This document shows, one piece after another, positions 6,877 to 37,740 of a stretch of DNA of 47,411 nt. The DNA lies in NCBI GenBank assembly GCA_937949915.1, contig CALECP010000146.1:1-47411 (forward strand). The letters are read 5' to 3'. Made by a program: the position numbers and the translations under genes. How positions within the stretch are numbered: position 1 is the first letter of the stretch; each line of letters opens with the position of its first letter. The notes under the pieces were generated by a model that saw only the letters and a list, made by a program, of their open reading frames with translations, was not told the DNA's origin and ran no database searches. The DNA comes from an uncultured Anaerolineae bacterium. GTDB taxonomy: Bacteria > Chloroflexota > Anaerolineae > Promineifilales > Promineifilaceae.

Positions 6877-6972
6877 ATAGCAGTTGTACCTCTTATTTGA
6901 TAACTACGCATCAGTATAGGGCAAAAGTGTAAATCGAATGTAAGTTCGTCGCAACTTAGCCAGTCAGCAATT

Positions 6973-7175
6973 CAGGGCAATCGCATTCTATATTTGCCAT
7001 CCAAAACAGTTCGTTTGTTCGCAAAAACGAGGTGTTTTAATATCAAATCAGGCCCAAAATCTGCGCTTATATCGACTTTCATCAATATGTCGTTTAGTTT
7101 TCGAGCAAATTGATGAGCCAAAAACACAATATGCGAAATTTCAGAACTTTTGAAAAATAGAACGCGATTGCCCTG
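6973..7175. mobile_element. 203-bp non-autonomous MITE-like element with 23-bp terminal inverted repeats and a 10-bp target-site duplication
   Basis: Left end 6973-6995 is CAGGGCAATCGCATTCTATATTT. The reverse complement of right end 7153-7175 is CAGGGCAATCGCGTTCTATTTTT (21/23 identical). It is flanked by identical GTCAGCAATT at 6963-6972 and 7176-7185. The interior is AT-rich with no ORF. Confidence 0.65.
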
Positions 7176-7266
7176 GTCAGCAATTCAGCCAGTCAGCAAT
7201 TCAGCTTTGTGAGCAGGTCAGTGTTTGAGGCAGCAGTTTTTGGTTGGGCATGTCAAAGTAGAGTGG

Positions 7267-7929
7267 CTATTTTTTGCGCTGGGCGGCCGTCACCGTTGCC
7301 AGCACAAGAAGCATGGGCAGCAGCCACAGCAACAACGGAAATGCTGTTTCAGCGGCCGGGGGTGTCAGCGTCACGGCCGATTGTGTTTGTAGCGTCATGC
7401 GCTCTACATCGACCAAAGTCATCCCCTCCGCATTGGCGGCCGTGCTGATCAAATTGATGTCACCCGTCAACCCCGCGCTCTGTTTGATATGCAGCGTCAT
7501 CACCACGCCAACCTGCCCTACATCAAAAAACAAGAGGTCGAAGCGGTCATCAAGTTGATGGATCGTACCATCGGCCGCTACATTTAAGATCGGGAACGGC
7601 TCAAATGATCGCCGTGCATCAACCACCGGTTCAACAAGCAGACTCAACTGATCGACTGCAAAATTATCGGTTGCCAACAACACATTAAACTGCCCAACCA
7701 ATGGGATAACGGGAGGGGCTTGTAAGTTAATAGTAGGTGGATTGGGCGGCCGGGGGGTGGGCGTTGGCACAATGCGCGTCGGTATGGGTGTAAAAAAATC
7801 ATCATATCCCTCTACGGTCGGCACAGGATAACCCTGAGCCGACGCACGTGCAGGATATAAAACAGCAGTAACCAAAAGCACAGACAGGCACAAAAGAGCG
7901 GTCAAGAGTAAATTATATTTTTGTAACAT
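7267..7929 (-). CDS. Secreted hypothetical protein with Pro-rich region and C-terminal hydrophobic anchor
   Basis: ORF 7267-7965. Start moved to ATG 7929 (AGGAA about 8 nt upstream), giving MLQKYNLLLTALLCLSVLLVTAVLYPARASA (signal peptide). C-terminus is FPLLLWLLPMLLVLATVTAAQRKK. No family recognised. Confidence 0.6.
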   Translation of the reverse strand: MLQKYNLLLTALLCLSVLLVTAVLYPARASAQGYPVPTVEGYDDFFTPIPTRIVPTPTPRPPNPPTINLQAPPVIPLVGQFNVLLATDNFAVDQLSLLVEPVVDARRSFEPFPILNVAADGTIHQLDDRFDLLFFDVGQVGVVMTLHIKQSAGLTGDINLISTAANAEGMTLVDVERMTLQTQSAVTLTPPAAETAFPLLLWLLPMLLVLATVTAAQRKK

Positions 7930-8026
7930 TGTTGTTTCCTTGTACTGAAAATAAGATAGCATCACAAGTATAACGCTGTCTCCCCTTTTTTGTAGGACAA
8001 ATCAACAAGAATCTTGAGGTTATTCC

Positions 8027-8230: not shown

Positions 8231-10651
8231 ATGTCGATCCAACCCTTGACCGCCTCCCAACTCCGCCGTGTTTGTGACCCAGCCAGCTTCCCATTTGACA
8301 CCACGGCCGCACTAAAACCAAACGGCAACATTATCGGCCAGCCACGCGGCACACGCGCCATCGAATTTGGCATCGCCATGCAAAGTCCGGGCTACAACAT
8401 CTATATTCTGGGTAGCACAGGCACCGGCCGCACCACGTATATCAGCCGCTTTCTCAAAGAGAAATCACGGACACAAGCCACGCCAGACGACTGGGTTTAT
8501 GTGCAAAATTTTGCCATCCAACACCAGCCCCGCGCCATTGAGTTTCCGGCCGGAGAAGGCGCACTGTTCAAAAAGCGGATGGAAGAGCTGGTGCAGTGTC
8601 TCAAAGAAGATTTGCCCCGCGCCTTCTCGACAGAGGAGTATGAAGAAGCGGTCAACACGCTTTGGGACAAAGTTGAACTGACACAATCATTGCTGATGCG
8701 CGACATCGAACGCAAAGCGCGGGAACGCGGGTTTGCGCTGGTGCGCTCTGCGTCGGGGCTAACGGTGACACCGGTTGTCGATGGCGAAGTGATGTCGGCC
8801 GAACAGTACGACGTTCTCTCGATGGAGCAACAGAACAAACTCGACCAAAATCAAGAGTTTCTGGAGGGAATGCTGGAAGATTTGGTCAAAAAGACACGCC
8901 TCATTCGCCAAAATGCACGGGACGAACTGAAAGCACTAGATCGTGCCGTTGCGGTACAAGCGATAGCCCCCCACACCGACGCAATGGGCGAAGCATACGC
9001 CAAACATGAAGAAGTGCTGCTCTATTTGGGTGAGGTGCAAGAAGATGTACTGAACCATCTCGATGGTTTCCGGCCGAGTACAGAGGAAGGGGAGCAAAAA
9101 AAACAAGACCTGCAACGGTATGATGTCAACATGTTTGTTGACCACAGCAACACAGAAGGTGCGCCCGTCATCGTGGCACAAAACCCGACGTACAACAATT
9201 TGATCGGCCGCATCGAATTTGAAATGCGCGGCGGCATCATGTCCACCAAATTTACGCACATCAAACCGGGCAGCCTGCACCTTGCCAATGGTGGCTATCT
9301 CGTCATCGACGCAACCGAACTTATCTCACAGCCCGATTCATGGGAAGCACTGAAACGCGCTCTCAAAACAGGCGAGATATTTCTGCAACCGTATAACACA
9401 CTTGATGGCAGCCGCGTTTTGGCAAAATCGCTCGACCCCGAAGCGATTCCGCTCGACATTAAAATCGTTTTGCTGGGCAGCAGTGCGCTCTATTACACGT
9501 TGGTCGAAGTGGATGATGATTTTTCGTCGCTGTTCAAGGTGATGGCAGATTTCGGCACGACAATGACACGAAACGAGGAAAACGAACTCGCCTACGCTGG
9601 TTTTATCGCCCAGCTCTGTGCTGATGAGAAGCTGCTTCATTTTGACCGTGCGGCCGTCGCCCGTGTCATCGAATATGGTAGCGAGTTGGCAGAAGAGCAA
9701 GACAAATTAAGCACGCGCTTTAGCACCATCGCCGATCTTGTGCGCGAGTCCAGCTTTTGGGCAACCCATCACGGCCGCACACTTGTCTCTTTGCACGATG
9801 TCGAACACGCCATCAATGAATGGGTGTACCGCTCCAACAAAGTAGAAACGCTGATAGACGAACAGATCGAGAGCGACAGCTTACTCATCGTCACCACCGG
9901 GGAAACCGTCGGGCAGATCAATGGCTTGAGCGTTTTGGAAGCAGGCGAGTATGCGTTTGGTCGGCCGATGCGGATCACAGCACGCACGTACATGGGCAGC
10001 AATGGCATTGTCCAAATCGAGCGCGAGACAAGCATGGCCGACTCTGTGCATAACAAAGGGGTGATGACGATCACCGGCTACTTGGGCGGCATGTACGCAC
10101 ACGAACATGCCCTTTCGCTCTCGGCAAGCCTCACATTTGAGCAACTATATGGAGAGATCGCCGGGGACAGTGCCAGTTCTACAGAGCTATATGCGCTGAT
10201 TTCCAGTCTCTCCAATTTGCCGATCAAGCAAGGGATCGCGGTCACTGGTTCTGTCGATCAGCGTGGTACTATTCAGCCGATAGGCGGGGTCAACGAGAAG
10301 ATCGAGGGCTTTTTCCGTGTGTGTGAACAACGGGGCTTGACAGGCGAGCAGGGTGTCATTATTCCCCAGAGCAATGCGGCCGAACTGATGCTGGACAAAG
10401 ATGTGATCGCGGCCGTCGAAGCGGGTCAGTTCAGTGTGTGGGCGATCAATCATATCGACCAGGGGCTGGAGATATTGCTCGGCCGTCCGGCCGGACAGCG
10501 CGACGAAAACGGCGACTTCCCCACAGACAGCATTCACGCCCTTGCCGAGGATGAACTGTTACGCCTAGCGAAAAAAGAAAGCGGCGAAGACGAAAACGAG
10601 GATGAAGACAACGAAGAAAGCGATCCATTACCCGTAGCAAATGACGAGTAG
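8231..10651 (+). CDS. LonC-type Lon-like protease (AAA-like domain with degenerate Walker motifs and helical insertion + S16 Ser-Lys protease domain)
   Basis: 806-aa ORF. P-loop-like GSTGTGRTT (Arg in place of Lys). Walker-B-like YLVIDATEL (DA instead of DE). Long helical insertion at about residues 110-330. C-terminal Lon proteolytic domain with GDSASSTELYALISS (Ser) and GGVNEKIEGFF (Lys). Acidic tail. Confidence 0.85.
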   Translation: MSIQPLTASQLRRVCDPASFPFDTTAALKPNGNIIGQPRGTRAIEFGIAMQSPGYNIYILGSTGTGRTTYISRFLKEKSRTQATPDDWVYVQNFAIQHQPRAIEFPAGEGALFKKRMEELVQCLKEDLPRAFSTEEYEEAVNTLWDKVELTQSLLMRDIERKARERGFALVRSASGLTVTPVVDGEVMSAEQYDVLSMEQQNKLDQNQEFLEGMLEDLVKKTRLIRQNARDELKALDRAVAVQAIAPHTDAMGEAYAKHEEVLLYLGEVQEDVLNHLDGFRPSTEEGEQKKQDLQRYDVNMFVDHSNTEGAPVIVAQNPTYNNLIGRIEFEMRGGIMSTKFTHIKPGSLHLANGGYLVIDATELISQPDSWEALKRALKTGEIFLQPYNTLDGSRVLAKSLDPEAIPLDIKIVLLGSSALYYTLVEVDDDFSSLFKVMADFGTTMTRNEENELAYAGFIAQLCADEKLLHFDRAAVARVIEYGSELAEEQDKLSTRFSTIADLVRESSFWATHHGRTLVSLHDVEHAINEWVYRSNKVETLIDEQIESDSLLIVTTGETVGQINGLSVLEAGEYAFGRPMRITARTYMGSNGIVQIERETSMADSVHNKGVMTITGYLGGMYAHEHALSLSASLTFEQLYGEIAGDSASSTELYALISSLSNLPIKQGIAVTGSVDQRGTIQPIGGVNEKIEGFFRVCEQRGLTGEQGVIIPQSNAAELMLDKDVIAAVEAGQFSVWAINHIDQGLEILLGRPAGQRDENGDFPTDSIHALAEDELLRLAKKESGEDENEDEDNEESDPLPVANDE

Positions 10652-10689
10652 ACATCTCTGCTCGTGATGAAGCAAAAAAGGAGAACGTT

Positions 10690-12348
10690 ATGACAAATAC
10701 AATCGACTTACTGACAAACGCAAAATGGCACGATCTAAACATCAATTGCAGCATTTTCACGCCACCGTATCCGGGGGAAATGGCGTTGCAGGTTCGTTTT
10801 TTCAAGCGGGTGACAGGCGCGGCCGGAGGCGGACAGGGTGCAAACGGTCAATTGATCGAATGGAGCAATAACACAGGCACGCATCTCGTCGGTGAACGCG
10901 CCTTCCATTCGGGGGCGACAGCGATCAGCGATATGCCGCTCGAAGATGTTTGTGGTGAGGCGGTTGTGATTGACTTGTCGGCCGAACTGTCCGACTACGG
11001 CTTCTATACCCCAGAAATGATCACCTCCAAAATCGACGTGAAAGCAGGGGATATTCTGATCATCAACACCGGCTACCACAAATATGCCTACGAAAATCCT
11101 GATGTAGTCAATGAGAACGCGCAAGGCGGCATCGAGAGCAAAGAGTTTGGCTTTTATTTGCGTCATCCGGGGCCGTCGGCCGACTTTTTCCAGTGGGCTA
11201 TCGACACAGGCATCAAGCTGATCGGGGTTGATTGCGGCTCGGCCGAGCATCCGATGAACACCAACCTACGCTATATGCACGCTCGTGAATTTGACAAAGC
11301 GGCCGCCAAATTACAAGAAACGCACGATCAAGAGTGGGACGACATGTTTCCGCCAGATGACTACTATAAATTGACGCATATCGACATGCCAAAGGCGCAT
11401 TTACGCTTACTCGAATCGCTCGGTGGGCAATTGAATGAAATTGGCACACGACGTATCTGGCTAATGGTGGGTGCGATTCCGTTTATGGAAGTGGAATCGG
11501 CGTGGTGTCGTGTGGCCGCACTGACTGCGCCCGATGGCATGAGCGACGACGATTTTATCGCCGCCATGCACACCGTAGACATGCTCGATCTGACGTTGCC
11601 GTTCTCTGTCCAAACGCCGCAATGGGCGAATTACGAGCCGCTCACATTGACGTACACAAAGCGGGTCGGCGGGCAGTATTTTGGGATGGGGCGCAATAAC
11701 GCGCATTGCAAAGCCAGCTTCCATTTGGCAACGCACATGGACGGCGAGATTCACTTTCACGCGGCCGGGCGTACCATCGGGCAAATGCCATTCGACTATT
11801 GGCGTGGGCAAGGTGTCGTCGCCGACATCAGCGAATTTGTGAGCGACACATCGGTGTACACCCCCGCCATGATCGAGAGCAAAATCGACGTGCAAGAGGG
11901 CGACATTTTGCTGCTCAAAACAGGCTGGCACAAATACGGCTGGAACAGCCCCGACAGCGACGAATTTCGCTACATGATCCGCCATCCCGGCCCATCGCCC
12001 GACTTCGCGCAATGGTGCATCGATAAAAAGATCAAATGGCTGGGCATCGACTGTGTGGCGATGGAACACCCAATGAACACGATTCAGCGTATCTTCCACC
12101 CGAAAACGTTTGAGGAAGCGAACCGCAAGCTGATCGAGCAGTACGGCGCGGATTGGGATACGGTGTACCCGCTCGACACGCACTATCAGGATATGCACCT
12201 CAATTTGTTCCCGAAAGGGATTGTCCACGTCGAGAATATCGGGGGGCAGATCGCGGAAATGGAGAGCGGCCGATACTTCATCAGCGCATTTGTCCAAAAA
12301 GGAATGGAAATGGCTTCATGCTGGCTACGAATGGTGATATTACAATGA
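10690..12348 (+). CDS. Tandem-duplicated putative cyclase / kynurenine-formamidase-like (PF04199-type) protein
   Basis: 552-aa ORF with AAGGAG upstream of ATG 10690. The two halves are homologous: YTPEMITSKIDVKAGDILIINTGYHKY / YTPAMIESKIDVQEGDILLLKTGWHKY; RHPGPSADFFQWAIDTGIKLIGVDCGSAEHPMNT / RHPGPSPDFAQWCIDKKIKWLGIDCVAMEHPMNT. The HxxTHxDxxxH metal motif is present only in the second half (FHLATHMDGEIHFH). Confidence 0.85.
   Translation: MTNTIDLLTNAKWHDLNINCSIFTPPYPGEMALQVRFFKRVTGAAGGGQGANGQLIEWSNNTGTHLVGERAFHSGATAISDMPLEDVCGEAVVIDLSAELSDYGFYTPEMITSKIDVKAGDILIINTGYHKYAYENPDVVNENAQGGIESKEFGFYLRHPGPSADFFQWAIDTGIKLIGVDCGSAEHPMNTNLRYMHAREFDKAAAKLQETHDQEWDDMFPPDDYYKLTHIDMPKAHLRLLESLGGQLNEIGTRRIWLMVGAIPFMEVESAWCRVAALTAPDGMSDDDFIAAMHTVDMLDLTLPFSVQTPQWANYEPLTLTYTKRVGGQYFGMGRNNAHCKASFHLATHMDGEIHFHAAGRTIGQMPFDYWRGQGVVADISEFVSDTSVYTPAMIESKIDVQEGDILLLKTGWHKYGWNSPDSDEFRYMIRHPGPSPDFAQWCIDKKIKWLGIDCVAMEHPMNTIQRIFHPKTFEEANRKLIEQYGADWDTVYPLDTHYQDMHLNLFPKGIVHVENIGGQIAEMESGRYFISAFVQKGMEMASCWLRMVILQ
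12304..12348 (+). repeat. Left copy of the 45-bp direct repeat (functional 3' end of the cyclase gene)
   Basis: ATGGAAATGGCTTCATGCTGGCTACGAATGGTGATATTACAATGA encodes MEMASCWLRMVILQ*. Its first 32 nt match 13486-13517 with 2 mismatches. Confidence 0.9.
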
Positions 12349-13484
12349 GTGATCGAAATAACTTGCGAGACTCCGCGCAAGAACAAGCGGAAATTGAAGA
12401 TAAACCGCGTGCAAGTCGAATAGATATTGAGTGGGGAGCAATAAACGCATTTCGAGAACTGCTTAGAGTTGCGTCCCGAGGTAATATGTCGCACTCAACC
12501 TACCAAAGTGCGATTGAGTTTGGGGGGAGTGTCTATCCTGATTTGCTTGGAGAGGATCGCAGCTTACTGAGACGAGCGCGAGAAAGCCGCCTCACGACTG
12601 AATATCGTCAAAAAGCCGGAGCGAAGCAACAGCTTGGTGAAGATGTCACTGCATTGCAACTTGCCGAGGAGGAATTGAGCGAAATCGAGAACTTGATCAA
12701 TGCCTCTGAATTCGGCGAAGCTAATGCTCTGAGGAGGAAGAAAGCAGATTTGTTGGAAAGTATCAATGAGTTAGACCCACCTGATGCTATTGAACACACG
12801 CTCATATTTCGAGATGTCAATCACGCAGATCGTAATCTACCGTCAATCCGAACTGAACATAACTTCCGCGAATTCAAATTACCAGACGATAATGTGCTTA
12901 GAATTACACTATATCATCCCAGTGTACCTGAACACATTTCTGGTGCAGACCTTATGTATGAGGTTCATGATATTAAGGCGAAAACTGTTAACGTTGTATT
13001 TATTCAGTACAAGATTTGGCATGAACGAACTATGTACTTATCTGATCCAAGAATGAATGCACAACTAGAAAAAATGAGAGAGCATACTTGTAAGGCAGGG
13101 CTGTGTAAAAATGATACAGTCGAATACCGTTTTCCTTACTGTGCAAGCTTCCTTAGACCAACCGATAAACTGCAATCTGCAGATCAAAGCTTGCGCTCTA
13201 CTGGTGAACATCTTCCGATATGCCGAATTGCGGAGTGTACTACTTTGGGACCAAAAGGTGGGGCAAAGCTTGAGTACAATGGCATAAAGAAAACCTCTCT
13301 TGCATATGATGTGTTCGAGGTCATGTTCAATCGAAAACGAATCGGTTCCAGAGCTTTATCATACACAGAGCTTGGGGAGATTTACGAAAAATTCCAGCTT
13401 CTACGTGAGCGGGATAGATTGCTGATCCATGCACAAGATTTCACGCCATTGTTACCTGAAACAGGTGATAACGAGAGTAATTAA
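12345..13484 (+). CDS. Hypothetical protein of an inserted cassette: N-terminal helical/coiled-coil half, C-terminal half with a possible PD-(D/E)xK-like (D...QxK) nuclease core and a Cys cluster
   Basis: ORF track gives 12153-13484. I start it at ATG 12345, which overlaps the cyclase stop (ATGA), because the upstream part lies inside the cyclase gene in another frame. GC is visibly lower than in the flanks and there is no CGGCCG. The candidate core is PEHISGADLMYEVHDIKAKTVNVVFIQYKIW. Cysteines: HTCKAGLCKN...YCASF...PICRIAEC. No family recognised with confidence. Confidence 0.7.
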   Translation: MSDRNNLRDSAQEQAEIEDKPRASRIDIEWGAINAFRELLRVASRGNMSHSTYQSAIEFGGSVYPDLLGEDRSLLRRARESRLTTEYRQKAGAKQQLGEDVTALQLAEEELSEIENLINASEFGEANALRRKKADLLESINELDPPDAIEHTLIFRDVNHADRNLPSIRTEHNFREFKLPDDNVLRITLYHPSVPEHISGADLMYEVHDIKAKTVNVVFIQYKIWHERTMYLSDPRMNAQLEKMREHTCKAGLCKNDTVEYRFPYCASFLRPTDKLQSADQSLRSTGEHLPICRIAECTTLGPKGGAKLEYNGIKKTSLAYDVFEVMFNRKRIGSRALSYTELGEIYEKFQLLRERDRLLIHAQDFTPLLPETGDNESN

Positions 13485-13485
13485 G

Positions 13486-13530
13486 ATGGAAATGGCTTCC
13501 TGCTGGCTACGCATGGTTGTCTATCAGTAA
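13486..13530 (+). repeat. Right copy of the 45-bp direct repeat (displaced, orphan 3' end of the cyclase gene)
   Basis: ATGGAAATGGCTTCCTGCTGGCTACGCATGGTTGTCTATCAGTAA encodes MEMASCWLRMVVYQ*. It begins 2 nt after the cassette stop codon and lies 1182 bp from the left copy. Confidence 0.9.
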
Positions 13531-13555
13531 ACGAAAGACATGCTATACTGAATTT

Positions 13556-13831
13556 ATGAATGCTGTGATTGAGATTCCAGAGGAGATTGCTGCTTCGATC
13601 AAACTCCCCAAACATCGGCTAAATGGGGAGTTGGTTAAGGAGTTGGCATTACAATTATACCGAGAGCGAATGATCTCATTCGCAAACGCACATCGGCTGG
13701 CGGGCATGAGTAAGGTCGCCTTTCATCATTTATTGGGCGACCGTCAAATTCCGCGCCATTATGGCGAAGATGCGTATGAACAAGATTTAGACGCATTGAC
13801 TGAATGGCGCAATGCAAACACAACAGTTTGA
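13556..13831 (+). CDS. UPF0175-family antitoxin-like protein (orphan; no PIN/DUF3368 partner downstream)
   Basis: From ATG 13556: MNAVIEIPEEIAASIKLPKHRLNGELVKELALQLYRERMISFANAHRLAGMSKVAFHHLLGDRQIP. This matches the UPF0175 pattern (IxLPxxL...ELAxxLYxxxxIS...A..LAGMS...F..LL....IP). TGCTATACT at 13541-13549 lies 6 nt before the ATG. Confidence 0.75.
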   Translation: MNAVIEIPEEIAASIKLPKHRLNGELVKELALQLYRERMISFANAHRLAGMSKVAFHHLLGDRQIPRHYGEDAYEQDLDALTEWRNANTTV

Positions 13832-13947
13832 GATTATCCGCTTACAATATTGCGCGTTTTTATTGGTATCAAAATACTTGATTGTGGTGAATTATCGATA
13901 ACAACCAAATTGTTTTTACCCGATGCGAAAAACAATAGTACCATCGC

Positions 13948-14204
13948 TCAATAGTGGAATTTACAAGCCACAATGATCAACTGCTCATCAGTTACTTTGT
14001 AAACAAGTCGGTGTTTTTGGTTAATACGACGTGACCAATAGCCTGCATAATCGTGTTTTAATGGCTCTGGCTTTCCAATCCCCTCAAATGGGTTGCGTTT
14101 CGTTTCGATGATTAACCGAATCAGTCGGTTGAATATCTTTTGTCGGTTGAAGACCAATCGGTGAATTGGGTAAACGCATCAGGGTAAAAGACGATCTGTC
14201 TCAT
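13948..14204 (-). pseudogene. yoeB: YoeB/Txe-family toxin gene disrupted by a -1 frameshift in an A-run
   Basis: ATG 14204 overlaps the antitoxin stop (ATGA) and reads MRQIVFYPDAFTQFTDWSSTDKR, then hits a stop after 5 more codons. The next frame (ORF 13948-14157) continues ...IFNRLIRLIIETKRNPFEGIGKPEPLKHDYAGYWSRRINQKHRLVYKVTDEQLIIVACKFHY. This matches YoeB (TPFEGKGKPEPLKH...WSRRI...HRLVY...C..HY). The junction is at ACCGACAAAAGATATTC, about 14136-14145. Confidence 0.78.
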
Positions 14205-14440
14205 TGATAGTCGTCCATATCAACCGCGATAAGTTCCGCCCCAGCCTCAACGTCGGCAATCGCACGGAGTAGATACTCGCGGTTCGCTTCGGAGCTGTCT
14301 AGGTATTCCGTTTCATCCATTTCATCCAGAGTAGTCACTTCGATCTGAATCTGTCGATTTGCAAACATTTGGCGCAATCCGATGAGAAACTGTTGGTCTA
14401 GCTGGTCGCTGTGTAATGTTACTGTCATGTTCATCATCAT
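14201..14440 (-). CDS. YefM/Phd-like antitoxin (C-terminal toxin-binding region recognisable)
   Basis: ORF 14201-14518. The likely start is one of the clustered Met codons (14440-14428), just downstream of a TATAAT. The C-terminal DETEYLDSSEANREYLLRAIADVEAG resembles the YefM [21 protein letters not shown] region. It is coupled to yoeB by ATGA. Confidence 0.62.
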   Translation of the reverse strand: MMMNMTVTLHSDQLDQQFLIGLRQMFANRQIQIEVTTLDEMDETEYLDSSEANREYLLRAIADVEAGAELIAVDMDDYQ

Positions 14441-14608
14441 ATTATAGTCGATATAGTGGCATTTGAAGCATCGAATGGTGATTTTTGTCGCATCGGCCGT
14501 TATTTTACGTTTGTCCAACGAGAGCTTTTTGCTGGTTAAGTCATATTTGGAATTGCTGTTAGAATGAATGATAGAATAGAATCGGAATAATCAAAGAGGT
14601 CATGTATT

Positions 14609-36698: not shown

Positions 36699-37625
36699 TC
36701 AAAGGGTTGCCTCGATGCCGTGCGCGTCTGCGATTTTTTGCAGTTTATTTTTGCGTTCGCGCCATGTCACCTTCGACAAGCCCTGGCGCTGACGAATGGT
36801 GTCTTGGTTGATACCCGCTTTCAAATCTTGGATGGCGGCCGTCCAGCGCAAATTCTCAAATGAGAGCAATCCGGCCGGAAGTTCGGCCGCGTTGCCAATG
36901 TCGCGCAAAACATACTCCAGATTACGCGCCGTACAGGTAAACAGCGTATCGGCCGGTTCATATTGCGCCATATATTGATCGAAGACAGCCAGAAAATCGG
37001 CCGATAATGGCAAGTTGCGTTCCTTGTTCGCCATGTTCGGATTTGTGTATCGAATCAGCAATTGAGGATCATCTGCATCGCGCTCGACATGCCCCGGCCG
37101 GATCGCCATCGCCTCCCCTTTCTTGATGCCTGTGTTGATCAACAAGAGCAGCAGCATGTGCGGCCGTGCATCTCGTTTGCCTTTGTTCCCCTCTGTGCGC
37201 CACCGTTCTGTAACGGTCAATGCCTGCGCCAATTGTTGATCATTAGGAATAGTCGGCACCGGGCTGGTCACACTTTTTTGCACCACATTATCGGCCGGAT
37301 CGATCATCAGCACATCGATCTTGTTAAGCCATTTGAAAAACACCTTCAGCGTCGTCACCCGACGAGAATATGTTTTGTCACTACACGGCTTATCTCGCTC
37401 AAACTTCATCCAATACAAAAATTTGTTGAGATCATCCGTTGCAATCGCCCCAATCGCCGTCCCCCCTTCGATATATTGCATCAACAAACGCATATCGCTC
37501 ATAAACGCTTTGACAGAATGAATAGAAAATCCTTCATCCTTCATGTGTTGTTCAAAAATCGGTAACGCTGCTGCCAACGTGGTGTTGGAGTTGAAAATGA
37601 GGTTTGGTTGGGTACTTTTAGCCAT
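36699..37625 (-). CDS. Tyrosine-recombinase (phage-integrase) fold protein with apparently degenerate active site
   Basis: Start at ATG 37625 or 37637. It has an N-terminal SAM-like core-binding domain (FSIHSVKAFMSDMRLLMQYI...YSRRVTTLKVFFKWL). The C-terminal catalytic-domain scaffold is LLLLLINTGIKKGEAMAI...NKERNLPL...ENLRWTAAIQDL...GLSKVTW. The expected R, H, H/W and Y positions are substituted (see findings). Confidence 0.7.
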   Translation of the reverse strand: MAKSTQPNLIFNSNTTLAAALPIFEQHMKDEGFSIHSVKAFMSDMRLLMQYIEGGTAIGAIATDDLNKFLYWMKFERDKPCSDKTYSRRVTTLKVFFKWLNKIDVLMIDPADNVVQKSVTSPVPTIPNDQQLAQALTVTERWRTEGNKGKRDARPHMLLLLLINTGIKKGEAMAIRPGHVERDADDPQLLIRYTNPNMANKERNLPLSADFLAVFDQYMAQYEPADTLFTCTARNLEYVLRDIGNAAELPAGLLSFENLRWTAAIQDLKAGINQDTIRQRQGLSKVTWRERKNKLQKIADAHGIEATL

Positions 37626-37740
37626 TGTATCTCTCATGTTTTTGTGCCATGCAATTGTTTCGCATAGCTGACAGACAACAAGGTTAAAACATCTGTGCGG
37701 AATTGTCAAATAACGGAATGAAAAAGAACGAAAAAAGTGG

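What the first reader, a model, noticed from the sequence alone, without database searches (positions are those of the whole stretch)
12304..13530. Single-gene cassette inserted at the 3' end of the cyclase gene, bracketed by a 45-bp duplication of the gene's last 14 codons
12304-12348 encodes MEMASCWLRMVILQ* and 13486-13530 encodes MEMASCWLRMVVYQ*. They are direct repeats 1182 bp apart. The first 32 nt differ at 2 positions and the last 13 nt have diverged while keeping similar coding.

This is the signature of integrative elements that target a gene's 3' end and bring a replacement end, displacing the original copy. Here the unit carries one gene and no recombinase. The left copy is the AT-richer one, as expected if it arrived with the low-GC insert.

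The cassette ATG (12345) overlaps the rebuilt cyclase stop (ATGA). The foreign gene is therefore translationally coupled to a host gene.
Basis: seen in the sequence. Interest (0 to 1): 0.8.

Follow-up and report, generated by a model that had tools for sequence, protein, structure and literature searches.

The report
Foreign nuclease gene spliced onto cyclase gene end
A single foreign gene for a predicted DNA-cutting enzyme, probably an anti-virus defence gene, has been inserted into the last 45 bases of a bacterial metabolic gene, with a spare copy of that gene's end left behind; this looks like the footprint of an unusually small mobile insertion, but it could not be shown to move.

Summary
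12304-12348 and 13486-13530 are direct repeats (36/45 identical; 30/32 in the first 32 nt). Both encode the cyclase C-terminus, and they bracket one 1140-nt low-GC ORF whose ATG overlaps the cyclase TGA. An independent assembly of run ERR9287622 has the identical structure, so it is not an assembly artefact.

The left copy has cassette-like codon usage. Its diverged last 13 nt are too tail-like to be unrelated DNA. The right copy looks like the displaced native end. This supports the "replacement end" reading.

No recombinase, attC site, third copy or second instance was found. No close relative exists, so no empty site could be checked. Mobility as a unit is therefore unproven.

The cargo belongs to a large unannotated family of about 356 aa with a predicted PD-(D/E)XK nuclease core. 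Elsewhere the family occurs as an integron cassette (Vibrio cholerae superintegron, attC-flanked metagenomic loci) and between primase and att in P4-like satellites. That points to a candidate anti-phage gene.

The best reading is a Campbell-type integration of DNA that carried a mimic of the gene's tail. The cassette is now expressed by read-through and translational coupling.

The main rival is "insertion with long target duplication", known for restriction genes. Interest is moderate: a new variant of a known kind.

The parts
10690..12348 (+). Target gene: a 552-aa two-domain 'putative cyclase' (kynurenine formamidase-like) protein. Its last 14 codons are the left repeat copy.
   Evidence: Pfam PF04199 matches twice, E 1e-55. 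449 relatives were confirmed by tblastn, and the 80 loci kept, mostly Chloroflexota MAGs, cover essentially the full length. Its length matches orthologs of 547-557 aa.
12304..12348 (+). Left repeat copy. It is the current 3' end of the cyclase gene (MEMASCWLRMVILQ*) and probably arrived with the insert.
   Evidence: Codon-usage log-likelihood ratio is +3.76, typical of the cassette (mean +4.2) and above every cyclase window (maximum 2.1). GC3 falls from about 12286 onward.
12304..12335 (+). 32-nt high-identity core of the repeat (30/32). All mismatches lie at position 15 or later, so a crossover would fall within the first 14 nt (ATGGAAATGGCTTC).
12333..12338 (+). GGTGAT, a Shine-Dalgarno-like motif inside the cyclase's last codons, 6 nt upstream of the cassette ATG. 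The right copy reads GGTTGT here.
   Evidence: Read directly from the sequence. That it functions as a ribosome-binding site is inference.
12345..13484 (+). Cassette ORF of 379 aa: an N-terminal helical domain plus a predicted PD-(D/E)XK nuclease-like core with four invariant Cys. Its ATG overlaps the cyclase TGA (ATGA). It has no promoter or terminator of its own.
   Evidence: 305 homologs. Invariant D202, Q221, Y222 and K223. AlphaFold2 model pLDDT 79.9. Best structural matches are Hjc and RecU resolvases, probability 0.85-0.97. No hit in Pfam, PADLOC, NCBIfam or PHROGs. No + strand promoter-like or terminator-like site between the cyclase gene, the cassette and the UPF0175 gene. An MSD-type N-terminus is shared with family members.
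13486..13530 (+). Right repeat copy: the displaced, now non-coding original end of the cyclase gene (MEMASCWLRMVVYQ*).
   Evidence: It keeps an aromatic residue where orthologs have F. 45 of 78 ortholog tails are closer to it than to the left copy.
13556..13831 (+). UPF0175 (antitoxin-like) gene, the presumed original downstream neighbour of the cyclase gene. It is part of the low-GC stretch 12.3-14.6 kb.
   Evidence: Pfam PF03683, E 1.6e-21. Composition.

Best explanation
A foreign, promoterless single gene was integrated into the 3' end of the cyclase gene. The event was a reciprocal (Campbell-type) recombination between the gene's native last 45 nt and a diverged copy of that end, which the incoming DNA carried directly in front of the cassette's start codon.

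The crossover fell in the first 14 nt of the repeat. The cyclase now ends in the imported copy (...MVILQ*). The last bases of that copy contain a GGTGAT ribosome-binding motif and the cassette ATG, which overlaps the TGA stop. The native end (...MVVYQ*) was pushed 1182 nt downstream and survives as a non-coding relic.

The cassette is transcribed by read-through from the cyclase promoter and translated by coupling to the cyclase stop. Its product is a predicted PD-(D/E)XK-fold nuclease from an uncharacterised family. Elsewhere that family travels as an integron cassette and sits in P4-satellite defence hotspots, so it is most likely an anti-phage gene.

The enzyme that made the joint is not encoded here. 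It could have been a site-specific recombinase acting in trans or since lost, which would make this a minimal CIME-like element. It could also have been host recombination on short homology.

Shown: the repeats, the foreign composition, the overlap, the family's genomic contexts, and the reproducibility in a second assembly. Inferred: the direction of origin of the two copies, the crossover position, the mode of expression, the nuclease and defence function, and any mobility.
For: - The repeat is real, specific and reproduced in an independent assembly.
- Both copies are homologous to ortholog C-termini.
- The two copies are closer to each other (36/45) than to any ortholog tail (at most 30/42).
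- Cassette GC is 0.44 and GC3 0.37, against 0.54 and 0.67 for the cyclase.
- The left copy's codon usage is cassette-like and the right copy's is not. Every mismatch lies 3' of repeat position 14.
- Mismatches cluster in the last 13 nt (p = 0.001), as with an identity block followed by a diverged replacement end.
- Only 0.04-0.2% of unrelated 13-mers would give a tail of the same length and equal similarity, or 2.6% if they end in ATGA. The 13 nt are therefore a diverged tail, not random leader.
- ATG 12345 is the family's native start, given the conserved MSD/MND N-termini. The tail mimic is therefore contiguous with the cargo.
- No + strand promoter-like or terminator-like site lies between the cyclase gene, the cassette and the UPF0175 gene.
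- The cargo family occurs in the V. cholerae superintegron between VCR repeats, in attC-flanked metagenomic loci, and between primase and att of P4-like satellites. The last position is a minor defence hotspot according to PMC13586616.
- Elements that keep attL and attR but have lost their integration genes are a defined class, CIMEs (PMC5704250).
Against: - There is only one instance. No empty site is available, because no genome is closer than 78-80% cyclase identity.
- The core is absent from the metagenome and viral collections.
- No integrase lies in or next to the unit. The only tyrosine-recombinase-like ORF is 23 kb away and scores weakly.
- The insert is flush with the ORF at both ends: 1 nt after the stop and the start inside the repeat. 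That is odd for a decayed island.
- Neither the closest relative (62% identical, downstream of gyrA) nor any of the other 58 family loci tested shows a duplicated host-gene tail.
- Mismatch density within the presumed imported part is uneven (2 of 18, then 7 of 13). This also fits a junction at position 32/33.
- Both copies share the unusual terminal Q. The 'mimic' therefore came from a very close lineage or arose in place.
Confidence: 0.5

Rival explanations
1. This is an 'insertion with long target duplication', the recombinase-independent mode described for restriction-modification units and solitary restriction-type nuclease genes. The ORF was inserted into the cyclase tail, and 32-45 nt of native target was duplicated on both sides. 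The left copy's last codons were later remodelled by a 4-nt deletion plus substitutions, which created the ATGA overlap and the GGTGAT motif. Breakage by the encoded nuclease itself may have promoted the event.
For: Furuta et al. 2010 (PMC2853133) describe direct repeats longer than 30 bp flanking RM genes, or a lone mcrA nuclease gene, with no other mobility genes. [quoted passage not shown] Here the repeat is 32-45 nt, spans the stop codon, and flanks a lone predicted PD-(D/E)XK nuclease gene with no mobility gene. The two copies are each other's closest relatives and share a rare terminal Q. Deleting GTAA from ...CAGTAA+ATGAGT gives the observed ...CAATGAGT; this can be read from the sequences.
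Against: This route needs five further substitutions within 9 nt, against 2 in 32 nt of the core. The left copy's differences all point towards cassette-like A-ending codons. The insert would have had to start exactly at its ATG. No methyltransferase partner is present. No empty site is available to show that a single native copy existed.
Confidence: 0.22
2. The cassette is a selfish, homing-endonuclease-like gene. Its nuclease cuts cassette-free cyclase tails, and repair copies in the cassette together with a cleavage-resistant replacement end. Free-standing endonuclease ORFs at the 3' ends of fungal mitochondrial genes behave this way (from my own knowledge: the Allomyces macrogynus atp6 case, Paquin et al. 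1994; not verified here).
For: The product has a predicted PD-(D/E)XK nuclease core. The insert is ORF-only and extremely compact. The host gene is kept intact by a diverged replacement end, and the displaced original end is retained.
Against: None of 82 other cyclase loci carries a family member, and none of about 95 family loci carries a cyclase. The family is absent from 50,697 phage and 72,556 plasmid records, and only 1 relative was confirmed in a pattern-based scan of 2.9 million viral contigs. Elsewhere it sits as passive cargo in integron arrays and satellite hotspots. It is typically single-copy. The right copy would still carry most of any target site.
Confidence: 0.07
3. The unit is the last surviving gene of a once larger genomic island or prophage that integrated at the cyclase 3' end with its own integrase. 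Later deletions removed everything but one useful gene, and part of attR as well. This is a sub-case of the best explanation that differs in history: decay, rather than a unit that was always minimal.
For: Decay of integrated elements to att-flanked remnants is common (PMC5704250). The neighbouring 13.5-14.6 kb is also low-GC accessory DNA, with an orphan UPF0175 gene and a frameshifted yoeB next to its antitoxin gene. A deletion ending inside attR would explain why the repeat begins exactly 1 nt after the cassette stop.
Against: A deletion endpoint 1 nt after a natural stop codon is a coincidence. No pseudogene fragments of integrase or other island genes remain, because there is no spare DNA at all. 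No third tail copy marks an outer boundary.
Confidence: 0.15
4. The structure is an assembly or chimera artefact, or the repeat is a chance match.
For: The contig comes from a metagenome. Other contigs met in this work carry artefacts: L095 has Nextera adaptor sequence at both ends.
Against: An independent assembly (L183) gives the same structure, with SNPs elsewhere. The copies differ at 9 positions and share at most 14 consecutive bases. No shuffle reached even one match.
Confidence: 0.02

Closest known systems
Integrative elements that target the 3' end of a gene and supply a replacement end, and their recombinase-less remnants (CIMEs, cis-mobilizable elements; PMC5704250). Classic protein-gene examples from my own knowledge, not checked here: e14 and phage 21 in icd, and ICESt1/ICESt3 and their CIMEs in fda.
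   Same: [quoted passage not shown] The copy next to the gene body differs from the displaced copy but keeps the reading frame and similar residues. No integration genes lie inside, as in a CIME.
   Different: The whole unit is 1182 nt, one ORF plus the 45-nt repeat, with no spare DNA. The cargo's start codon lies inside the replacement end. No cognate integrase or parent element is known, and no second copy or empty site was found.
Insertion with long target duplication of restriction-modification or solitary nuclease genes (Nobusato et al. 2000; Furuta et al. 2010, PMC2853133)
   Same: A repeat longer than 30 bp flanks a restriction-fold nuclease gene, with no mobility gene present. The repeat spans the stop codon of the target gene, which therefore stays intact.
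   Different: In that class both copies are native and start out identical. Here the last 13 nt differ at 7 positions, and the left copy has foreign codon usage. There is no methyltransferase. The empty site that defines the class is unavailable.
Integron gene cassettes
   Same: The gene is a compact promoterless single ORF that depends on upstream transcription. The same protein family is a genuine cassette in the V. cholerae superintegron and in attC-flanked metagenomic loci. A circular form of the window's unit would be the ORF plus a spacer of about 42 nt, which is cassette-like in size.
   Different: The window has no attC. The flanks do not fold (z = +0.3 to +0.7), whereas true attC sites give z = -3 to -5. 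There is no R''/R' pair and no IntI or attI. The repeat is host coding sequence.
Free-standing homing endonuclease ORFs at gene 3' ends with a duplicated C-terminal coding region (fungal mitochondria; own knowledge, not verified here)
   Same: A nuclease ORF is fused or abutted to a replacement 3' end of a host gene, and the original end is displaced downstream.
   Different: The family shows no association with a fixed target gene. It is essentially absent from phages and behaves as cargo of other elements.

Membership tests
Integrative element at a gene 3' end, or its recombinase-less remnant (CIME) | Direct repeats (attL/attR) that contain the 3' end of the target gene and bracket the element | tested here: met
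   The two copies are 36/45 identical (30/32 in the core), and both encode the cyclase C-terminus.
Integrative element at a gene 3' end, or its recombinase-less remnant (CIME) | An integrase or recombinase in the element. This is required for an autonomous element and is absent by definition in a CIME. | tested here: not met
   The only ORF between the repeats is the nuclease-like gene, which has no Pfam hit. The only recombinase-like ORF in the window, 36699-37709, is 23 kb away and scores near or below the curated cut-offs.
Integrative element at a gene 3' end, or its recombinase-less remnant (CIME) | An empty site (attB) with a single copy of the repeat in a related genome | tested here: inconclusive
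   All 78 ortholog loci have a single tail and no cassette, but the nearest is only 78-80% identical and not syntenic. No empty-site contig is on record for the identical UPF0175 or H-NOX proteins.
Integrative element at a gene 3' end, or its recombinase-less remnant (CIME) | Excision to a circle, or mobilisation by a related element | not testable with these tools
   This needs reads or PCR across a 13485->12336 circle junction.
Integrative element at a gene 3' end, or its recombinase-less remnant (CIME) | The same att sequence or element recurs at the same target in other genomes | tested here: not met
   A degenerate pattern for the core gave 0 matches in the metagenome and viral collections. 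No family member occurs in 82 cyclase loci.
Integron gene cassette | An attC site (R''-L''...L'-R' imperfect hairpin) directly 3' of the ORF | tested here: not met
   There is no attC-like candidate in 12-15 kb. Segment 13462-13523 folds at -2.7 kcal/mol, z = +0.7, whereas control attC sites give z = -3.2 and -5.4. The feature is met for homologs in L095, L119, L126, L128 and L180.
Integron gene cassette | An IntI integrase, attI, or an array of attC sites nearby | tested here: not met
   Pfam scans of 25 window ORFs (20 of the larger ones outside the locus plus the five at it) found no IntI. The window has no attC array.
Insertion with long target duplication (Furuta 2010) | A direct duplication of target sequence longer than 30 bp flanks the insert, with no mobility genes present | tested here: met
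   A 32-nt core at 94% identity within 45 nt of homology. No mobility gene is present.
Insertion with long target duplication (Furuta 2010) | Both repeat copies derive from the single native target, shown by an empty site in a relative | tested here: inconclusive
   No empty site is available. Cassette-like codon usage of the left copy and clustered divergence argue against. The rare terminal Q shared by both copies argues for.
Insertion with long target duplication (Furuta 2010) | The insert carries restriction-modification genes (R and M, or a solitary restriction-type nuclease) | tested here: inconclusive
   A predicted PD-(D/E)XK core rests only on the fold match and a conserved motif. There is no methyltransferase and no hit to a known restriction family.
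PD-(D/E)XK nuclease superfamily (cargo protein) | A restriction-endonuclease-like alpha/beta core fold | tested here: inconclusive
   The AlphaFold2 model has pLDDT 79.9 and pTM 0.77. The best Foldseek hits are Hjc resolvases (probability 0.95-0.97, E 0.01-0.04) and RecU (probability 0.85, E 0.2), with TM-scores on the target of 0.39-0.46. No match reaches E <= 0.001.
PD-(D/E)XK nuclease superfamily (cargo protein) | A catalytic D ... (D/E/Q)xK motif on adjacent strands | tested here: met
   Invariant D202 (in GADxxYE) lies just before predicted strand 203-209, and invariant Q221-Y222-K223 lies in strand 214-226. Catalytic activity was not tested. The window protein has S in place of the nearly invariant D193.
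PD-(D/E)XK nuclease superfamily (cargo protein) | A profile match to a curated family | tested here: not met
   No hit in Pfam, NCBIfam, PADLOC or PHROGs. The profile search against PDB sequences gave only E = 0.21.
Homing endonuclease gene | Recurrent presence or absence at one conserved target site across genomes | tested here: not met
   Family members occur in 0 of 82 cyclase loci, and the family sits in many unrelated contexts.
Diversity-generating retroelement (template and variable repeat at a gene's 3' end) | A reverse transcriptase gene, and repeats of about 60 nt or more with adenine-specific differences | tested here: not met
   No RT is present. The repeat is only 45 nt, and the right copy is not part of a gene.

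The most novel reading that the evidence does not exclude
The 1182-nt unit (one ORF plus a 45-nt mimic of a host gene's tail) may be a living representative of an undescribed class of minimal mobile cassettes that encode no recombinase. Such cassettes would use a gene-tail mimic as their attachment site instead of an attC hairpin, and would plug themselves into a host gene's transcription and translation. Alternatively, its own PD-(D/E)XK nuclease may drive 'insertion with long target duplication', which would extend Kobayashi's proposed virus-like life cycle of restriction genes to a non-RM defence nuclease.
Probability: 0.1. Interest if true: 0.8.

Novelty: new variant of a known kind. Interest (0 to 1): 0.45.

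Why it matters
If the reading is right, a defence-type gene can be delivered as a bare ORF that repairs the host gene it interrupts. It would then borrow that gene's promoter and ribosomes through an engineered-looking stop/start overlap.

That would be the smallest form of "replacement-end" integration. It would link three delivery formats for one gene family: an integron cassette, P4-satellite hotspot cargo, and a gene-tail insertion.

Independently of the insertion, the cargo family has 305 hits at E <= 0.001 in the homolog search. It spans Vibrio, Klebsiella, Salmonella, Edwardsiella, Aeromonas, Burkholderia, Planctomycetota, Cyanobacteria and Chloroflexota-like metagenomes. Every public annotation seen calls it "hypothetical". 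It is a concrete, testable candidate for a new single-gene anti-phage system.

Tried and rejected
1. attC or integron origin of the window's repeats: rejected. There is no hairpin, no R''/R' pair and no IntI.
2. A third tail copy marking the outer edge of a larger island: none found anywhere in the window.
3. A duplicated gyrA tail around the closest relative in L081: the alignment score is no better than shuffles.
4. Direct repeats around 59 other family loci: the only strong ones are attC-type.
5. Diversity-generating retroelement (template/variable repeats): rejected. There is no reverse transcriptase, the repeat is too short, and the A-bias is explained by codon usage.
6. Rfam families on related loci: none.
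7. Phage and plasmid records: no homolog. The viral-contig scan confirmed 1 relative.
8. Literature search for accession WP_110216236: nothing. No supplements are held for PMC13586616.
9. An empty site via the degenerate core pattern in metagenomes and viral contigs: 0 hits. Via exact look-up of the flanking proteins: only a second copy of the same structure.
10. PMC3434094 was read as a possible mitochondrial precedent, but it describes an atp9 duplication, not a clean analogue. The Allomyces precedent is therefore cited from memory only.
11. Assembly artefact: rejected.

Full report
**1. The observation**

- The left segment, 12304-12348, encodes MEMASCWLRMVILQ* and forms the last 14 codons of a 552-aa ORF.
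- The right segment, 13486-13530, encodes MEMASCWLRMVVYQ* and belongs to no long ORF.
- They are 36/45 identical, 30/32 in the first 32 nt, with a start-to-start spacing of 1182 nt.
- Mismatches lie at repeat positions 15, 27, 33, 34, 36, 38, 39, 42 and 44. That is 2 of 32 against 7 of 13 (Fisher p = 0.001).

The repeat is specific. The 32-mer with up to three mismatches occurs only at these two places in 47 kb, and no match appeared in 100 shuffles. It is the only long, high-identity repeat pair in the window.

The ATG at 12345 overlaps the TGA at 12346-12348. One base separates the cassette's TAA (13482-13484) from the right copy.

An independent assembly of sequencing run ERR9287622 (L183, 3835 nt) aligns to window 10283-14117 at 99.66% identity without gaps. 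It carries the same cyclase, cassette, right copy and UPF0175 order. All 13 differences lie elsewhere, and both repeat copies are identical to the window. The two copies also share at most 14 consecutive bases. An assembly artefact is therefore effectively excluded.

**2. The target gene**

ORF 10690-12348 has two PF04199 "putative cyclase" domains (E 1e-55). It has hundreds of full-length relatives, mostly in Chloroflexota MAGs (Anaerolineae, Ardenticatenaceae, Promineifilaceae).

Orthologs end ...ASCWARFVAFK*...ASCWGRFVAFK(E..)*. The three closest (78-80% identity) end ...ASCWLRMVAFK*...ASCWLRLVAFR* and ...ASCWLRMVAFKG*. Both window copies are therefore homologous to the natural C-terminus.

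None of 78 ortholog loci has a second tail, and none carries a relative of the cassette gene.

The two copies resemble each other (36/45) far more than either resembles any ortholog tail (at most 30/42). More ortholog tails are closer to the right copy (45) than to the left (16). The right copy keeps an aromatic residue (Y) where orthologs have F.

**3. The insert**

The ORF 12345-13484 (379 aa) has GC 0.44 and GC3 0.37, against 0.54 and 0.67 for the cyclase and 0.52 for the window as a whole. The low-GC stretch continues to about 14.6 kb across a UPF0175 gene and a yoeB/antitoxin pair.

No + strand promoter-like or terminator-like site lies between the cyclase gene, the cassette and the UPF0175 gene. 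A GGTGAT motif sits 6 nt upstream of the cassette ATG, inside the cyclase's last codons; the right copy reads GGTTGT at that position.

Family members begin MSD..., MSN... or MND..., so ATG 12345 is the native start of the gene.

**4. Which copy is foreign?**

I computed a codon-usage log-likelihood ratio (cassette against host genes).
- The left copy scores +3.76. That is typical of the cassette (mean +4.2) and higher than every 14-codon window of the cyclase gene (mean -3.9, maximum 2.1).
- The right copy scores 0.07.
- GC3 along the cyclase falls only from about 12286 onward.

The last 13 nt of the left copy are unlikely to be unrelated leader sequence. Only 0.04-0.2% of 13-mers from this window would give a stop at the same codon with residues at least as similar to VYQ. 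The figure is 2.6% even among 13-mers ending in ATGA.

The simplest reading is that the incoming DNA carried a diverged copy of the cyclase tail, contiguous with the cassette's start codon. Recombination within the first 14 nt of the repeat then produced the present structure, with the native end displaced.

**5. What could not be shown**

- No genome or contig closer than 78-80% cyclase identity exists in the collections searched.
- The two nearest relatives have a small PDDEXK_3 gene after the cyclase, and different neighbours.
- A degenerate pattern for the core found nothing in the metagenome or viral collections.
- Exact look-ups of the flanking UPF0175 and H-NOX proteins found only the second copy of the same structure, with no empty site.
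- No recombinase lies in or beside the unit. The single tyrosine-recombinase-like ORF (36699-37709) is 23 kb away, with scores near or below the Pfam cut-offs.
- No third tail copy exists.
- Across 59 other loci of the cassette family, the only strong flanking repeats are attC sites.
- The closest relative (62% identical, L081) lies 27 nt after gyrA with no tail duplication.

Mobility of the 1182-nt unit is therefore an inference from a footprint seen once.

**6. The cargo**

The protein has 305 homologs at E <= 0.001, most of them 350-375 aa. They are patchily spread across Vibrio, Aliivibrio, Shewanella, Aeromonas, Edwardsiella, Klebsiella, Salmonella, Citrobacter, Pectobacterium, Burkholderia, Methylobacter, Planctomycetota, Acidobacteriota, Cyanobacteria and Bacteroidota. 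Essentially all are named "hypothetical protein".

It has no hit in Pfam, NCBIfam, PADLOC or PHROGs, and none in the phage or plasmid records. A pattern-based scan of 2.9 million viral contigs confirmed one relative.

The alignment shows invariant D202 (in GADxxYE), invariant Q221-Y222-K223, four invariant Cys and an invariant His. An AlphaFold2 model (pLDDT 79.9) has an N-terminal helical domain and a C-terminal alpha/beta core. Its best PDB matches are the PD-(D/E)XK Holliday-junction resolvases Hjc (probability 0.95-0.97, E 0.01-0.04) and RecU (probability 0.85, E 0.2). This suggests a restriction-endonuclease-fold nuclease but is not conclusive.

**7. Where the family lives**

- In Edwardsiella, in E. 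coli 63-2 (WP_110216236.1) and in a metagenomic contig, it is the gene directly after the primase of a P4-like satellite. In E. coli 63-2 host genes follow it, so it lies between the primase and the end of the satellite. PMC13586616 reports that 7% of P4 defence systems lie in this position. The main P4 hotspot is described in PMC9122126.
- In V. cholerae it sits in a co-oriented array of small genes separated by 120-138-nt repeats, with copies immediately before and after it. This is the superintegron.
- Several metagenomic members are flanked by canonical attC sites (GCCTAAC...GTTAGGC and similar) that fold as strong imperfect hairpins, z = -3.2 and -5.4.
- The second-closest relative of the window protein (P0003, L095) is flanked by about 103-nt attC-like repeats.

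Integron cassettes are now known to carry phage-defence genes (bioRxiv 10.1101/2024.07.02.601719). Together these contexts make an anti-phage role the most likely function. That is an inference and was not tested.

**8. The window's repeats are not attC sites**

They are host coding sequence and do not fold (z = +0.3 to +0.7). No R''/R' pair is present in 12-15 kb. The gene has therefore reached this genome in a third "format".

**9. Comparison with known kinds**

Two known footprints fit.

(a) Site-specific integration at a gene's 3' end with a replacement end, followed by loss or absence of the integration genes. This is a CIME as defined in PMC5704250.

(b) "Insertion with long target duplication" (Nobusato 2000; Furuta 2010, PMC2853133). 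Here restriction-modification units, or a solitary nuclease gene, are flanked by direct repeats of target sequence longer than 30 bp with no mobility genes. [quoted passage not shown]

Evidence for (a): the clustered divergence, the foreign codon usage of the left copy, and the contiguity of the mimic with the native start codon. Evidence for (b): the flush ORF-only insert, the absence of any recombinase, the nuclease cargo, and the rare terminal Q shared by both copies.

I put (a), including its decayed-island variant, at roughly 0.5-0.65 combined, (b) at about 0.2, and a homing-endonuclease-like reading at under 0.1. The homing reading is unlikely because the family shows no fixed target and behaves as cargo.

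**10. Verdict**

The feature is a real, reproducible single-gene insertion that rebuilt the end of its target gene and is set up for translational coupling. Its cargo is an uncharacterised, probably defensive nuclease family that is otherwise an integron cassette and satellite-hotspot gene.

It is a new variant of known kinds rather than something categorically new, and only one instance is known. Interest is moderate (0.45). It would rise sharply if reads or relatives showed excision, an empty site, or recurrence.

Noticed in passing
window 13948-14200 (- strand): The yoeB toxin gene is split by a frameshift. MRQIVFYPDAFTQFTDWSSTDKRYSTD* is in one frame and ...VFNRQKIFNRLIRLIIETKRNPFEGIGKPEPLKHDYAGYWSRRINQKHRLVYKVTDEQLIIVACKFHY* in another. 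The upstream antitoxin-like ORF (14201-14518, -) ends with an ATGA overlap onto the yoeB start. This is either a pseudogene or an assembly indel.
   Followed up: partly
L180 5827-7191 (Vibrio cholerae GCA_034554415.1): A homolog of the cassette protein (P0021) lies in the V. cholerae superintegron. Copies of the 120-138-nt array repeat sit immediately before and after it, among acetyltransferase, glyoxalase, DUF645 and HNH cassettes.
   Followed up: yes
L095 425-527 and 1695-1797: The second-closest relative (P0003) is flanked by about 103-nt attC-like imperfect hairpins (ATAAC...GTTCACCGGGCCGCGG...CCGCGGCTCCGTGTGCAAC...GTTAT). The downstream one overlaps the ORF's stop codon.
   Followed up: partly
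L095 34-52 and 1800-1818: This public metagenome contig carries Nextera transposase adaptor sequence (AGATGTGTATAAGAGACAG / CTGTCTCTTATACACATCT) at both ends, an untrimmed-adaptor artefact.
   Followed up: no
window 13466-13472: GATAACG lies 9 nt before the cassette stop. It matches the R''-box region of the attC copies in L095 (AGATAACGG / GTATAACGT) at nearly the same distance from the conserved ...PL codons. It may be a vestige of a truncated attC, but a 6-7-mer match is weak and was spotted after the fact.
   Followed up: partly
L087 9694-10065 and L088 3224-3595: In the two closest cyclase relatives, the gene directly after the cyclase is a small (123-aa) PDDEXK_3 (PF13366) protein, 46-50 nt downstream. 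A different small nuclease-fold gene therefore occupies the same position.
   Followed up: no
window 12300-14600: The whole stretch between the cyclase body and the H-NOX/histidine-kinase operon is low-GC (0.38-0.47 against 0.52). It holds only accessory-type genes: the cassette, an orphan UPF0175 gene, and the yoeB/antitoxin pair. It forms a small variable islet.
   Followed up: partly
L081 865-1992 and 2009-2028: The closest relative of the cassette protein (62% identical) lies 27 nt after the stop of a gyrA gene and is followed by a GC-rich hairpin (GGGCGAAATGTATTTCGCCC). It appears to be inserted between a housekeeping gene and its terminator, without any repeat.
   Followed up: partly
window 10588-10615 and 14100-14107 compared with L183: The 13 differences between the window and the independent assembly are clustered: 7 within 28 nt of the acidic C-terminal tail of the LonC-like protease gene, and 4 within 8 nt in yoeB near the end of L183. 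These are micro-heterogeneity hot spots or contig-tip errors.
   Followed up: no
window 36699-37709 (- strand): A 336-aa ORF gives weak tyrosine-recombinase hits (Phage_int_SAM_1 28.3 bits, Phage_integrase 23.6 bits, the latter below its 27.1-bit cut-off). It is probably a Xer-like housekeeping recombinase, and nothing links it to the repeat.
   Followed up: no
window 6951-7204: Short direct repeats GCAA(C/T)T(T/C)AGCCAGTCAGCAATTCAG occur three times within 250 nt, in an intergenic region upstream of ORF 7267-7965. Unexplained.
   Followed up: no
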